This document shows positions 19,038-19,400 of a DNA stretch of 64,000 bases, piece by piece. Below the pieces are notes generated by a model that saw only the letters and a program-made list of their open reading frames with translations, was not told the origin of the DNA and did no database searches. Source of the DNA: a virus; the IMG/VR virus record IMGVR_UViG_3300037309_000059, positions 1 to 64,000 of that record. One strand, 5' to 3'. The first letter of the stretch is position 1; each line of letters begins with the position of its first letter. A program made the translations under genes and the position numbers.

Positions 19038-19177
19038 CTGACGATGATGTAGATCAGGAGTTCTTCATTCAAACCGTGGGTCTCAGGTTCGAGTCCTGAC
19101 TTCCGTGCTTCGGCTCGGTAGTAGCTCAGTTGGTAGAGCAATGGTCCAAAAGAGCCTGATCGTTCGTTTCTCGTCAG
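19038..19177 (+). ncRNA. Y-RNA-like module 1 with permuted tRNA-like domain (YrlA-like)
   Basis: The terminal helix pairs CTGACGA with TCGTCAG. The internal loop is TGATGTA (5') and GTTCGTTTC (3'), and the inner helix pairs GATCAGG with CCTGATC. The apex holds a T-arm (TCAGG-TTCGAGT-CCTGA), an acceptor-like stem closed by UUCG, and a D-arm (GCTC-AGTTGGTA-GAGC). Confidence 0.7.
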
Positions 19178-19186
19178 CCTACAAAT

Positions 19187-19256
19187 GCCGGTGATGTAGA
19201 CCTCGCTTCCTTCGTTTCTGGAACGACCAAAGATGCGAGATCGCTTGTTTCCCGGC
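19187..19256 (+). ncRNA. Y-RNA-like module 2 (short, hairpin apex; YrlB-like)
   Basis: The terminal helix pairs GCCGG with CCGGC. The internal loop is TGATGTAGAC (5') and ATCGCTTGTTTC (3'). The inner helix pairs CTCGC with GCGAG, and the apex is a TCGTT/AACGA hairpin. Confidence 0.65.
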
Positions 19257-19266
19257 TGTCGACATT

Positions 19267-19400
19267 GGCGATGATGTAGAGGGCAGTTCCTTCTCCCTGT
19301 AAGAGAGAGGTTGTTGGTTCGAATCCAACCGGCTCCACCATCTATGGGGCCGTAGCTCAATGGTAGAGCGCTAAAGTCCTGTCTTCGCTTGTTTCTCGCC
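19267..19400 (+). ncRNA. Y-RNA-like module 3 with permuted tRNA-like domain (YrlA-like)
   Basis: The terminal helix pairs GGCGA with TCGCC. The internal loop is TGATGTAGA (5') and TTCGCTTGTTTC (3'), and the inner helix pairs GGCAG with CTGTC. The apex holds an anticodon-like hairpin, a T-arm (GTTGG-TTCGAAT-CCAAC), CGGCTCC-ACCA, and then GGGGCCG-TA with a D-arm (GCTC-AATGGTA-GAGC). Confidence 0.7.

What the first reader, a model, noticed from the sequence alone, without database searches (positions are those of the whole stretch)
19073..19370. Circularly permuted tRNA-like domains inside two of the RNA modules
Module 1 reads, in this order: an anticodon-stem 3' strand (ACCGT), a 5-nt variable loop and a T-arm (TCAGG-TTCGAGT-CCTGA). 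Then comes an acceptor-like stem closed by a UUCG tetraloop (CTTCCGTGC-TTCG-GCTCGGTAG, 9 bp with two U-U pairs). It finishes with TA, a D-arm (GCTC-AGTTGGTA-GAGC) and an anticodon-stem 5' strand (ATGGT). Module 3 reads: an anticodon-like hairpin (TTCTC-CCTGTAA-GAGAG), a variable loop, a T-arm (GTTGG-TTCGAAT-CCAAC) and acceptor 3' strand CGGCTCC followed by A-CCA. After a 5-nt linker come acceptor 5' strand GGGGCCG, TA and a D-arm (GCTC-AATGGTA-GAGC). Both are therefore tRNA bodies whose acceptor ends are joined and whose chain is opened near the anticodon arm, where the Ro-binding stem emerges. The opening point differs between the two: within the anticodon stem in module 1, and at the 26/27 junction in module 3. 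An internal, encoded ACCA in module 3 is striking.
Basis: partly seen in the sequence, partly recalled or inferred. Interest (0 to 1): 0.8.

Follow-up and report, generated by a model that had tools for sequence, protein, structure and literature searches.

The report
Phage Y RNAs with permuted tRNA domains
Two of four small RNAs encoded just upstream of a phage Ro60 gene contain tRNA bodies in rearranged order, a published RNA class called YrlA, but one also carries an encoded ACCA and the alanine-tRNA acceptor signature, so whether such RNAs get charged with an amino acid can now be tested.

Summary
Window 19073-19145 and 19291-19370 each hold a T arm, an acceptor-type helix and a D arm in permuted order. 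Both lie inside long terminal stems, directly upstream of a Ro60 (TROVE) gene in a temperate phage.

These are YrlA-class Y RNAs (Chen et al. 2014). Wang et al. [quoted passage not shown] Module 1 is a standard member.

Module 3 is a variant. It has a 7-bp acceptor GGGGCCG/CGGCUCC with G3·U70, then A73, an encoded CCA and a 5-nt linker before G1. It also has a hairpin with anticodon-arm geometry.

The same GGG.../...UCC-A acceptor, with pairs 5-7 covarying, recurs in the Ro-proximal Y RNA of:
- three other Ro-encoding viral contigs;
- four cultured Streptomyces phages, which were found through the protein rather than the RNA.

The closest experimental precedent is M. smegmatis YrlA, which RNase P cuts and which receives CCA.

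I infer that module 3 is nicked by RNase P into a two-piece Y RNA with a CCA end. Charging by alanyl-tRNA synthetase is possible but less likely. Neither step was tested.

Verdict: new variant of a known kind, moderate interest.

The parts
18926..18996 (+). Module 0: a short Y RNA with no tRNA-like domain (YrlB-like). Terminal stem GCGGCGA/UCGUCGC, 5' motif GGCGAUGAUGGAG, 3' motif CGCGUUUGUUUCUCG.
   Evidence: Sequence; fold; the motif pair is found only at modules 0 and 2, with 0.01 expected by chance.
19038..19177 (+). Module 1: a complete YrlA-type Y RNA. The terminal Ro-binding stem is CUGACGAUGAUGUAG ... CGUUCGUUUCUCGUCAG.
   Evidence: Minimum-free-energy fold, z = -2.6; Rfam YrlA 32.3 bits, E 4.3e-5.
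19073..19145 (+). Module 1 tRNA-like domain. In order:
- anticodon-stem 3' strand 19073-77
- variable loop GGGUC 19078-82
- T arm 19083-99
- closed acceptor-like stem with UUCG loop 19100-21
- U8-A9 19122-23
- D arm 19124-39
- A26 19140
- anticodon-stem 5' strand 19141-45

The tertiary pair is G15:C48.
19187..19256 (+). Module 2: a short Y RNA with no tRNA-like domain. It is bracketed by GGUGAUGUAG and CGCUUGUUUCCCGGC.
19265..19402 (+). Module 3: a complete YrlA-type Y RNA. Terminal stem UUGGCGA/UCGCCAA plus inner helix GAGGGCAG/CUGUCUUC. It ends about 40 nt before the Ro start codon.
   Evidence: The minimum-free-energy fold gives a five-way junction, z = -3.1. Rfam YrlA scores 36.4 bits, E 2.9e-6. 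The consensus fold with three relatives has 16 of 35 pairs with compensatory changes.
19291..19312 (+). Module 3 hairpin with anticodon-arm geometry (the V stem-loop of Chen et al.): UUCUC-CCUGUAA-GAGAG. It is followed by the 5-nt variable loop AGGUU, whose U48 pairs with A15.
   Evidence: 43 of 127 relatives have the same 5-bp/7-nt/5-nt geometry, against 0-2 at shifted registers.
19313..19329 (+). Module 3 T arm: GUUGG-UUCGAAU-CCAAC.
19330..19340 (+). Module 3 acceptor 3' strand CGGCUCC (positions 66-72, with U70), discriminator A73 and encoded CCA.
   Evidence: The permuted-tmRNA Rfam model aligns its acceptor/T-arm part here (29.7 bits, E 3.7e-4).
19341..19345 (+). The 5-nt linker UCUAU. 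The predicted RNase P cleavage site lies between U19345 and G19346.
   Evidence: A (U)CUAY linker is present in all four Ro-adjacent relatives of this type. Cleavage itself is inferred from M. smegmatis YrlA.
19346..19370 (+). Module 3 acceptor 5' strand GGGGCCG (G3 pairs with U70), U8-A9, D arm GCUC-AAUGGUA-GAGC, and G26.
19444..20154 (+). N-terminal half of the Ro60/TROVE homologue, encoded as a separate ORF.
   Evidence: Up to 55.8% identity to phage proteins, a minority annotated TROVE or RNA-binding and the closest as hypothetical. Database homologues are named 60 kDa SS-A/Ro or TROVE domain-containing.
20129..20968 (+). A 279-aa intervening ORF that splits the Ro gene. It looks like a homing endonuclease, judged by eye from repeats resembling the DNA-binding motif of such enzymes and a C-terminal nuclease-like motif.
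   Evidence: Translation; no Pfam hit. It is 51-52% identical to the 219-aa ORFs at the same place in other split Ro genes.
20965..21660 (+). C-terminal half of Ro60, containing the von Willebrand factor A (vWA) domain.
   Evidence: Weak Pfam hits to vWA_Ro60 (1.3e-4) and TROVE. It aligns to the contiguous Ro genes of L209 and L193.

Best explanation
Window 18926-19402 encodes four tandem Y RNAs on the same strand as, and directly upstream of, a phage Ro60 (TROVE) gene.

Each module closes with a terminal stem carrying the same two motifs: a 5' G-N-C/U-G-A-U-G...UAG and a 3' CGYUUGUUUCYCG. I infer this stem to be the Ro60-binding site.

Modules 1 and 3 are YrlA-class Y RNAs. Their inner part is a tRNA body in permuted order. 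It should fold into the tRNA L-shape and serve as the effector-binding part of the Ro60 complex.

Module 1 is the standard form, with a closed acceptor stem-loop and the Ro stem continuing from the anticodon stem.

Module 3 is a variant of the subclass that can be opened, whose studied example is M. smegmatis YrlA. It has:
- a 7-bp acceptor helix in exact tRNA register;
- a G1 preceded by U;
- A73 and an encoded CCA, all of which a bacterial RNase P substrate would have;
- the alanine identity set G1:C72, G2:C71, G3·U70, G4:C69 and A73.

My proposed sequence of events is:
1. RNase P cuts between 19345 and 19346.
2. The UCUAU trailer is trimmed back to CCA.
3. The two halves stay together through the acceptor helix, the Ro stem and tertiary contacts.
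4. The exposed CCA end may then be charged by alanyl-tRNA synthetase.

Shown here: the sequence, the helices, the covariation, the genomic association, and the recurrence of the alanine-type acceptor. [quoted passage not shown] Inferred only: Ro binding, cleavage and charging of this RNA.
For: Identity as YrlA:
- Both modules hit the Rfam YrlA model.
- The Ro60 homologue lies directly downstream.
- 119 distinct modules next to related Ro genes have the same order. 92% have at least 6 of 7 acceptor pairs, against 6.6% in the control, and they use 89 different 7-mers.
- The 15:48 tertiary pair is G:C in 97 and A:U in 20 of 124 modules. Module 1 has G:C and module 3 has A:U.
- Published work shows the tRNA-like fold (PDB 6CU1) and describes the family as permuted tRNAs.
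- The tRNA-like domain and its modifications are described in Chen et al. 2014.

Module 3 as an alanine-type subclass that can be opened:
- The minimum-free-energy fold puts ACCA-UCUAU in the acceptor loop.
- The permuted-tmRNA model, whose consensus is CUCCACCA...GGGG, aligns here.
- A complete scan of viral contigs for CTCCACCA-N0-14-GGGGNNNTAGCTCA gave 74 loci.
- About 20 of them have no flanking ARAGORN tRNA on the acceptor strands, and nearly all of these have 6-7 of 7 complementary bases. Tandem tRNA junctions in the same scan have mostly 4-5.
- L188, L193 and L209 have a Ro gene directly downstream.
- The consensus fold of the four Ro-adjacent members keeps G3·U70 in 4 of 4 while 16 of 35 pairs change on both sides.

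A sample chosen through the protein rather than the RNA: Streptomyces phages BRock, pSt2308, Alone3 and GiJojo have Ro proteins 66-100% identical to one another.
- All four carry, in the Ro-proximal module, G1:C72, G2:C71, G3·U70, C4:G69 and A73.
- Pairs 5-7 covary: GGGCCGG/CCGGUCC, GGGCUGG/UCAGUCC, GGGCGUA/UGCGUCC and GGGCGUG/CGCGUCC.

Precedent: M. smegmatis YrlA has a 7-bp acceptor. M1 RNA cuts it in vitro, it is cut in vivo, and it gains CA to give CCA. Both halves co-precipitate with Rsr.

The window's own tRNA-Gly gene also encodes its CCA.

Some relatives carry the same five helices in tRNA order, with an open acceptor and encoded CCA. This shows that a free CCA end is compatible with this RNA family.
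Against: - No expression, processing or charging data exist for this RNA.
- Both modules score well below the Rfam YrlA gathering score (36 and 32 bits against 69).
- Most relatives (over 90% of modules) have closed acceptors with tetraloops. G3·U70 is not enriched among those (6 of 65).
- In the sample of Ro-adjacent loci chosen without reference to the RNA, CCA at positions 74-76 is only weakly enriched, and some cases are simply part of a longer helix.
- The alanine-type viral set was retrieved with a pattern that forced GGGG/CUCC-ACCA, so those bases cannot be counted as conserved in that set.
- CCA-bearing permuted modules with acceptors that are not alanine-type also exist: the L345 type, L101, L452 and L465.
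- The closest-looking counterpart of module 3, the fourth module of L484, has a closed GCAA acceptor.
- No close relative of this phage was found. The best Ro identity is 58% in the contig collections and 68% for a 190-aa fragment in the protein database.
- I could not obtain the M. smegmatis YrlA sequence to compare acceptors.
Confidence: 0.8

Rival explanations
1. Module 3 is an ordinary, never-cleaved YrlA. Its acceptor loop happens to read ACCAUCUAU, and its GGGG/CUCC-A acceptor is a relic of descent from, or recombination with, a tRNA-Ala or tmRNA gene. It would work only as an intact tRNA-shaped handle for an effector.
For: - Closed acceptors are the rule in the family.
[quoted passage not shown] - A73 can pair with U19345 to give an 8-bp closed stem in the minimum-free-energy fold.
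- The fourth module of L484 has the same T stem and D arm but a GCAA-capped acceptor.
- CCA enrichment is weak in the sample chosen without reference to the RNA.
Against: - G3·U70 with A73 is kept in 4 of 4 Streptomyces phage modules while pairs 5-7 covary.
- It is also kept in all four Ro-adjacent CCA-bearing modules despite compensatory changes elsewhere. A wobble pair with no function would be expected to drift to G:C or A:U.
- The 7-bp register, U at -1 and ACCA are what RNase P uses, and the M. smegmatis YrlA with a 7-bp stem is cleaved in vivo.
Confidence: 0.3
2. The tRNA-like domains act as decoys or sponges. The phage would use them to soak up host tRNA-directed factors such as anticodon nucleases, tRNA-modifying enzymes or defence proteins that sense tRNA. 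Ro60 would only stabilise them.
For: - The setting is a phage, and several tRNA-like modules occur per locus.
- The hairpin has anticodon-arm geometry, with U33 in 36 of 43 cases. Its commonest loop, CUUGUAA, equals the anticodon loop of tRNA-Thr(UGU).
- D and T stem sequences are conserved, which Wang et al. read as a site for a sequence-specific tRNA-binding protein.
Against: - There is no direct evidence.
- The same RNA class is chromosomal in many bacteria with no phage context.
- Module 3 has C33, not U33.
- This idea does not exclude the main explanation. It only names a different effector.
Confidence: 0.15
3. Module 3 is a true permuted tRNA gene, as in the red alga Cyanidioschyzon merolae. 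Its transcript would be circularised and re-cut to give a normal decoding tRNA.
For: The 3' half precedes the 5' half, CCA is encoded, and all four tRNA arms are present.
Against: - The anticodon-like loop has C33, and its UGU triplet does not match the alanine-type acceptor.
- The flanks form a long Ro-type stem shared with three neighbouring modules that are not tRNA-like.
- Relatives show compensatory changes in that stem.
- From my own knowledge: no bulge-helix-bulge splice motif is visible, and bacteria lack the archaeal-type splicing endonuclease.
- The locus is tied to a Ro gene in every relative examined.
Confidence: 0.02
4. The region is a two-piece (permuted) tmRNA gene, or decayed remnants of two tandem tRNA genes.
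For: The permuted-tmRNA Rfam model hits 19313-19354 (29.7 bits, E 3.7e-4). Tandem tRNA junctions can mimic the T arm to D arm order, as Chen et al. caution.
Against: - Only 60 of 213 model positions match, below the gathering score of 47. There is no tag reading frame or pseudoknots, and ARAGORN finds no tmRNA.
- The D arm is a full tRNA-type arm.
- The acceptor strands are 7 of 7 complementary, while tandem tRNA junctions give mostly 2-5 of 7.
- The whole module is enclosed by a conserved stem.
Confidence: 0.02

Closest known systems
YrlA Y RNAs (Rfam RF02553; S. Typhimurium YrlA, structure PDB 6CU1; Chen et al. 2014; Wang et al. 2018)
   Same: - Encoded next to rsr/Ro60 on the same strand.
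- The terminal stem carries a GNCGA-type motif.
- The inner domain runs (V hairpin), T arm, acceptor-like stem-loop, UA, D arm, with tRNA-invariant bases and the covarying 15:48 pair.
- Already described in print as circularly permuted tRNAs.
- Module 1 matches this in every respect.
   Different: - The Rfam score is sub-threshold (32-36 bits against 69).
- The Ro motif reads GNCGAUG rather than GNCGAA(N)G.
- Four modules sit in tandem.
- The locus is in a temperate phage and its Ro gene is split.
- Module 3's acceptor is not a capped stem. It is a 7-bp helix followed by A-CCA and a linker.
Mycobacterium smegmatis YrlA (Chen et al. 2014)
   Same: - A 7-bp acceptor in a YrlA just upstream of rsr, together with a second, shorter Y RNA.
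- It was shown to be cut by RNase P and to end in CCA, with both halves bound to Rsr.
- It is the direct precedent for what I propose for module 3.
- The Ro-proximal modules of Streptomyces phages (A73-C74, then a loop) look like the same design.
   Different: - In M. smegmatis the CA is added after nibbling. In the window the whole CCA is encoded.
- The alanine identity set was not mentioned in that paper.
- I could not check whether that RNA has G3·U70.
tRNA-like domain of tmRNA, including two-piece permuted tmRNA (Rfam RF04321)
   Same: - The acceptor reads GGGG.../...CUCC-ACCA with G3·U70, stacked on a T arm.
- In permuted genes the CCA-ending piece comes first, followed by a spacer and then GGGG (alignment).
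- From my own knowledge, tmRNA is charged by AlaRS.
   Different: Module 3 has no message part or pseudoknots. It has a full D arm, it is enclosed by a Ro-type stem, and ARAGORN finds no tmRNA.
Permuted tRNA genes of Cyanidioschyzon merolae (Soma et al. 2007; from my own knowledge)
   Same: The 3' half lies upstream of the 5' half, joined through the acceptor ends.
   Different: Those genes give normal decoding tRNAs through a circular intermediate. Here the product is a Y RNA, and the break sits at the Ro stem.
D. radiodurans Yrn1 (from the text of Chen et al. 2014)
   Same: A Ro-bound Y RNA with T-arm and D-loop-like features.
   Different: The orientation is opposite: the Ro stem takes the acceptor position and the stem-loop between the arms takes the anticodon position.

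Membership tests
YrlA Y RNA | Encoded adjacent to a Ro60/Rsr (TROVE) gene, on the same strand. | tested here: met
   Module 3 ends about 40 nt before the Ro start. Ro identity rests.
YrlA Y RNA | The 5' and 3' ends pair into a stem that carries the Rsr-binding motif GNCGAA(N0-1)G near the 5' end. | tested here: inconclusive
   The stems form and covary in relatives. The motif reads GGCGAUG or GACGAUG (GGUGAUG in module 2), one base off the published consensus. Binding was not tested.
YrlA Y RNA | Inner domain in the order T arm, acceptor-like stem, UA, D arm, with tRNA-invariant bases (U8, A14, G18G19, A21, G53, U54U55C56, A58, C61). | tested here: met
   Read directly; the motif is unique in the window; the same order holds in 119 relatives.
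YrlA Y RNA | Covarying 15:48 tertiary (Levitt) pair, either G:C or A:U. | tested here: met
   Module 1 has G15:C48 and module 3 has A15:U48. In the family, 117 of 124 modules have one or the other.
YrlA Y RNA | Score at or above the Rfam RF02553 gathering threshold (69 bits). | tested here: not met
   The scores are 36.4 and 32.3 bits. Relatives in this Ro subfamily also score only 32-47 bits. I treat this as a limit of the curated model, not as a structural failure.
YrlA Y RNA | tRNA-like L-shaped 3D fold, and modification by TruB and DusA. | not testable with these tools
   Shown only for S. Typhimurium YrlA.
RNase P-cleaved, CCA-ended YrlA (M. smegmatis type) | A 7-bp acceptor helix in tRNA register, followed by a discriminator base and C or CCA. 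| tested here: met
   GGGGCCG/CGGCUCC is 7 of 7 paired, followed by A73 and CCA.
RNase P-cleaved, CCA-ended YrlA (M. smegmatis type) | Actual cleavage at G1 and a CCA 3' end in vivo. | not testable with these tools
   There is only the experimental precedent.
Alanine-accepting RNAs (tRNA-Ala, tmRNA) | G3·U70 in the acceptor stem with A73, supported by G2:C71 and G4:C69. These identity rules come from my own knowledge of the E. coli AlaRS literature. | tested here: met
   Read directly. The acceptor aligns to the tmRNA consensus. G3·U70 and A73 are conserved in 8 related Ro-proximal modules.
Alanine-accepting RNAs (tRNA-Ala, tmRNA) | A free 3' CCA end that is aminoacylated. | not testable with these tools
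   This requires prior cleavage and trimming, and there are no data.
tmRNA (two-piece) | A tag reading frame, pseudoknots, and a D-loop without a stem. | tested here: not met
   ARAGORN finds no tmRNA. Only model positions 36-95 of 213 match. A full D arm is present.
Ordinary tRNA gene | A colinear cloverleaf recognised by a tRNA finder. | tested here: not met
   ARAGORN and Rfam at gathering score find none at 18900-19450.

The most novel reading that the evidence does not exclude
Ro-proximal Y RNAs of this type are true alanine acceptors. RNase P nicks them, and the encoded (or added) CCA end is charged by the host AlaRS. The phage Ro60 complex would then carry an Ala-tRNA-like arm that could engage EF-Tu, the ribosome, or host systems that sense tRNA charging or integrity. 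Together with the relatives in tRNA order, this would mean a family of Ro-tethered tRNA mimics whose acceptor end, not just the elbow, is the working part.
Probability: 0.25. Interest if true: 0.75.

Novelty: new variant of a known kind. Interest (0 to 1): 0.45.

Why it matters
The function of the tRNA-like domain of bacterial and phage Y RNAs has been unknown since 2014. Aminoacylation has only been raised as a possibility, for one species.

This work found a recurrent acceptor stem with the full alanine identity set next to Ro60 genes. AlaRS reads only the acceptor stem, so alanine is the one identity that can be recognised from that stem alone.

It occurs here with an encoded CCA. It also occurs in cultured Streptomyces phages (BRock, Alone3, GiJojo, pSt2308).

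That turns the speculation into a direct experiment: RNase P cleavage, AlaRS charging, and a G3·U70 mutant as control.

If the result is negative, the finding is simply another well-formed YrlA pair in a phage.

Tried and rejected
- **Close relatives of the phage.** I looked for them to test conservation of the four-module array.
  - Megablast against phages found nothing.
  - The best Ro identity was 58% in viral, genome and metagenome contigs.
  - The only closer full-length hit is the same sequence in a Logan assembly of SRR12687059.
- **M. smegmatis YrlA sequence.** I could not obtain it.
  - No supplements are held for Chen et al. 2014.
  - Three reviews are not held.
  - Streptomyces plasmid Ro loci showed no tRNA-like module.
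- **Unbiased scans for CCA-bearing permuted modules.** They therefore gave only anecdotal cases that are not alanine-type.
- **General enrichment of G3·U70.** It is not enriched in closed-acceptor YrlAs (6 of 65), so I dropped the idea that all YrlAs mimic tRNA-Ala.
- **Identity of the intervening ORF in the Ro gene.** Pfam and PHROGs gave nothing.
- **Alternatives rejected.** Ordinary tRNA, permuted decoding tRNA, tmRNA and tandem-tRNA remnants; the reasons are under the rival explanations.
- **Literature.** Searches of the held library found no description of alanine-type or tRNA-order Y RNAs. The library lacks the main reviews, so absence there is weak evidence.
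Full report
**1. What is in the sequence**

The details are in the observation check.

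The T-loop-to-D-arm motif occurs twice in 64 kb, only here. It never occurs in 100 shuffles.

ARAGORN finds no tRNA or tmRNA in this stretch. No Rfam family reaches its gathering score here.

A sensitive Rfam scan of 18780-19460 gives three relevant hits:
- YrlA ("Y RNA-like") on 19265-19405, at 36.4 bits and E 2.9e-6.
- YrlA on 19051-19165, at 32.3 bits and E 4.3e-5.
- The acceptor/T-arm part of the permuted-tmRNA model on 19313-19354, at 29.7 bits and E 3.7e-4.

Single-sequence folding of module 3 returns a terminal stem, a hairpin, a T arm, an acceptor helix and a D arm (z = -3.1). Module 1 folds with z = -2.6.

**2. Context**

The two tRNA-like modules belong to an array of four tandem modules: 18926-18996, 19038-19177, 19187-19256 and 19265-19402. 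Each is closed by a stem with the same 5' (GAUGAUGUAG-type) and 3' (CGYUUGUUUCYCG) motifs.

The next gene is a Ro60/TROVE homologue (weak Pfam hits). It is split into an N half (19444-20154) and a C half (20965-21660) by a 279-aa ORF.

The window is a temperate phage or prophage:
- An integrase lies at 26590-27813, beside a tRNA-Gly gene.
- Tail-fibre and tape-measure genes lie on the minus strand.
- A primase/helicase is also present.

**3. What it is**

Chen et al. 2014 (PMC4201824) described YrlA RNAs next to rsr in more than 250 bacteria and phages. The layout is a Ro-binding stem enclosing (V stem-loop), T arm, acceptor-like stem-loop and D arm, with tRNA tertiary pairs.

Wang et al. 2018 solved the structure.

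I tested the structure on relatives fetched through the Ro protein:
- 119 distinct modules have the T arm, acceptor stem, D arm order.
- 92% have at least 6 of 7 acceptor pairs, against 6.6% when strands are cross-paired. They use 89 different 7-mers.
- The 15:48 pair is G:C in 97 and A:U in 20 of 124 modules.
- The window itself shows this covariation: module 1 has G15:C48 and module 3 has A15:U48.

**4. The two opening points**

Module 1 keeps a 5-bp anticodon-type stem (AUGGU/ACCGU) that continues towards the Ro stem. This is the arrangement seen in the S. Typhimurium structure.

Module 3 has a separate hairpin with exact anticodon-arm geometry and a 5-nt variable loop. The Ro stem therefore leaves between positions 26 and 27, giving a five-way junction.

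This is common in the family:
- 43 of 127 modules have the same geometry, against 0-2 at shifted registers.
- U occupies position 33 in 36 of the 43.
- CUUGUAA is the commonest loop.

Which helix stacks under the D stem in three dimensions cannot be told from sequence.

**5. What is unusual about module 3**

Its acceptor is not a capped stem. It reads CGGCUCC-A-CCA-UCUAU-GGGGCCG: seven pairs in tRNA register with G1:C72, G2:C71, G3·U70 and G4:C69, then A73 and CCA.

From my own knowledge this is the alanine identity set. The consensus of the tmRNA model it aligns to shows the same bases.

Three sets of relatives bear on it.

*Set forced by the search pattern.* A complete viral scan for CTCCACCA-N0-14-GGGGNNNTAGCTCA gave 74 loci.
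- Most are tandem tRNA genes, with 4-5 of 7 complementary bases.
- About 20 have no flanking ARAGORN tRNA on the acceptor strands, and nearly all of these show 6-7 of 7 complementarity.
- L188, L193 and L209 have a Ro gene immediately downstream.
- Their consensus fold with the window has 16 of 35 pairs with double changes, while G3·U70 stays in 4 of 4. The linker before G1 reads (U)CUAY.

*Ro-adjacent loci chosen without reference to the RNA.* Every module that starts GGG, has 7 pairs and is followed by an unpaired A has G3·U70. These are L251/L209, L260/L262 and L265.

*Cultured Streptomyces phages found through the Ro protein.* BRock, pSt2308, Alone3 and GiJojo were found through the BRock Ro protein.
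- BRock shows a four-module array on inspection; in the other three I located the first and the Ro-proximal tRNA-like modules.
- In all four the Ro-proximal module has G1:C72, G2:C71, G3·U70, C4:G69 and A73.
- Pairs 5-7 covary, and the loop begins A-C in three of the four.
- As in the window, that Ro-proximal module has A15:U48, and in BRock the first tRNA-like module has G15:C48, read from the sequences.

A wobble pair held constant while its neighbours covary is what an identity element looks like.

**6. How it probably works**

M. smegmatis YrlA has a 7-bp acceptor. M1 RNA cuts it in vitro, it is cut in vivo, and it acquires a CCA end. Both halves remain bound to Rsr.

Module 3 has the same features plus a fully encoded CCA and a U at position -1. 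The window's own tRNA-Gly gene also encodes its CCA.

I therefore propose RNase P cleavage at 19345/19346, trimming of the trailer, and a two-piece Y RNA with a free ACCA end. I give this about 0.55. Charging by AlaRS I give about 0.25-0.3.

Ro binding by the terminal stems is inferred from motif similarity and from position next to the gene.

**7. Limits**

- There are no experimental data for this RNA.
- Closed acceptors dominate the family, and G3·U70 is not enriched in them.
- CCA-bearing permuted modules that are not alanine-type exist.
- The fourth module of L484 resembles module 3 but is capped by GCAA.
- No close relative of this phage exists in the collections searched.
- I could not read the M. 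smegmatis acceptor. The alanine signature may already be visible in that published figure, without comment. The paper's text does not mention alanine or U70.

**8. Verdict**

Module 1 is a new member of a known kind. Module 3 is a new variant: an alanine-type acceptor that can be opened, with encoded CCA, plus an anticodon-like arm.

Interest is moderate. The main value is that aminoacylation of Y RNAs becomes directly testable, including in cultured phages.

Noticed in passing
window 19444-21660; L482 2749-4758; L484 3001-5091: The Ro60 gene is in pieces: a TROVE N half, a 219-279-aa ORF, then a vWA C half.

The middle ORF looks like a homing endonuclease, judged by eye. It is 51-52% identical between three phages whose Ro halves are 51-56% identical, so the split looks old and inherited.

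L209 and L193 have the gene intact. Many database homologues are stand-alone N halves of about 230 aa.
   Followed up: partly
L009 2683-2812, L011 1520, L012 2726-2853, L017 2686, L031 2679; also L254, L267, L300, L314, L320, L324: Some Ro-adjacent RNAs carry the same five helices in tRNA order: acceptor 5' strand, D arm, a loop-capped hairpin with the Ro-type motifs inserted at positions 26/27, an anticodon-like hairpin, T arm, acceptor 3' strand, a discriminator base and encoded CCA. They are natural circular permutations of YrlA.

The Rfam tRNA model spans 125-127 nt of them, but ARAGORN rejects them. I found no description in the papers I could search.
   Followed up: partly
L489 1990-2190 (Vibrio phage BUCT194, upstream of a DUF2828 gene): Two T-arm-to-D-arm modules have acceptor strands that are complementary to each other rather than within a module: CTTCCCC-G-CCA pairs with GGGGAAG, and GGACAGT pairs with ACTGTCC-A.

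This means a tRNA-order module is nested inside the acceptor loop of a permuted one.
   Followed up: no
L491 974-1047 (Streptomyces phage Alone3, record 10920-10993); L492 969-1043 (GiJojo, record 9796-9870): The GenBank annotations tRNA-Ser(gct) and tRNA-Arg(cct) cover the 5' half of the Ro-proximal Y RNA: Ro-stem strand, hairpin, T arm and acceptor 3' strand. They are probably false calls by tRNA finders.
   Followed up: partly
L101 6340-6440; L185 (minus strand, around position 633): Permuted tRNA-like modules with an internal N-CCA also sit next to 485-aa proteins. The L101 protein hits DUF2828 and DUF7788 in Pfam; the L185 protein only resembles it at its N terminus by eye (its 49-aa fragment gave no Pfam hit). 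I take these to be relatives of Ro, but that link is from my own knowledge.

This suggests the association extends beyond TROVE proper.
   Followed up: partly
L488 1732-1805 (Arthrobacter phage Atuin): A genuine tRNA-Thr(UGU) lies right after the Ro gene. Its anticodon loop CUUGUAA is the same heptamer as the commonest loop of the YrlA hairpin. This hints at which tRNA the family derives from or imitates.
   Followed up: no
window 26590-28113: An integrase on the minus strand sits next to a complete tRNA-Gly(CCC) gene with encoded CCA. This is a likely integration site. Phage genes lie on both sides of it.
   Followed up: no
window 21835-22392 and 24302-25480: A 185-aa calcineurin-like phosphoesterase lies shortly after the Ro C half. 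L482 has a metallophosphoesterase in a similar place. A DndB-like protein lies further on.
   Followed up: no
window 18805-18850: A strong GC-rich hairpin follows the upstream ORF. It gives weak, both-strand hits to the F6 sRNA model, so it is most likely a terminator. An AT-richer stretch follows, before module 0.
   Followed up: no
window 14444-20227: This stretch is identical to a 7-kb Logan contig from run SRR12687059. That contig ends inside the ORF that splits the Ro gene.
   Followed up: partly
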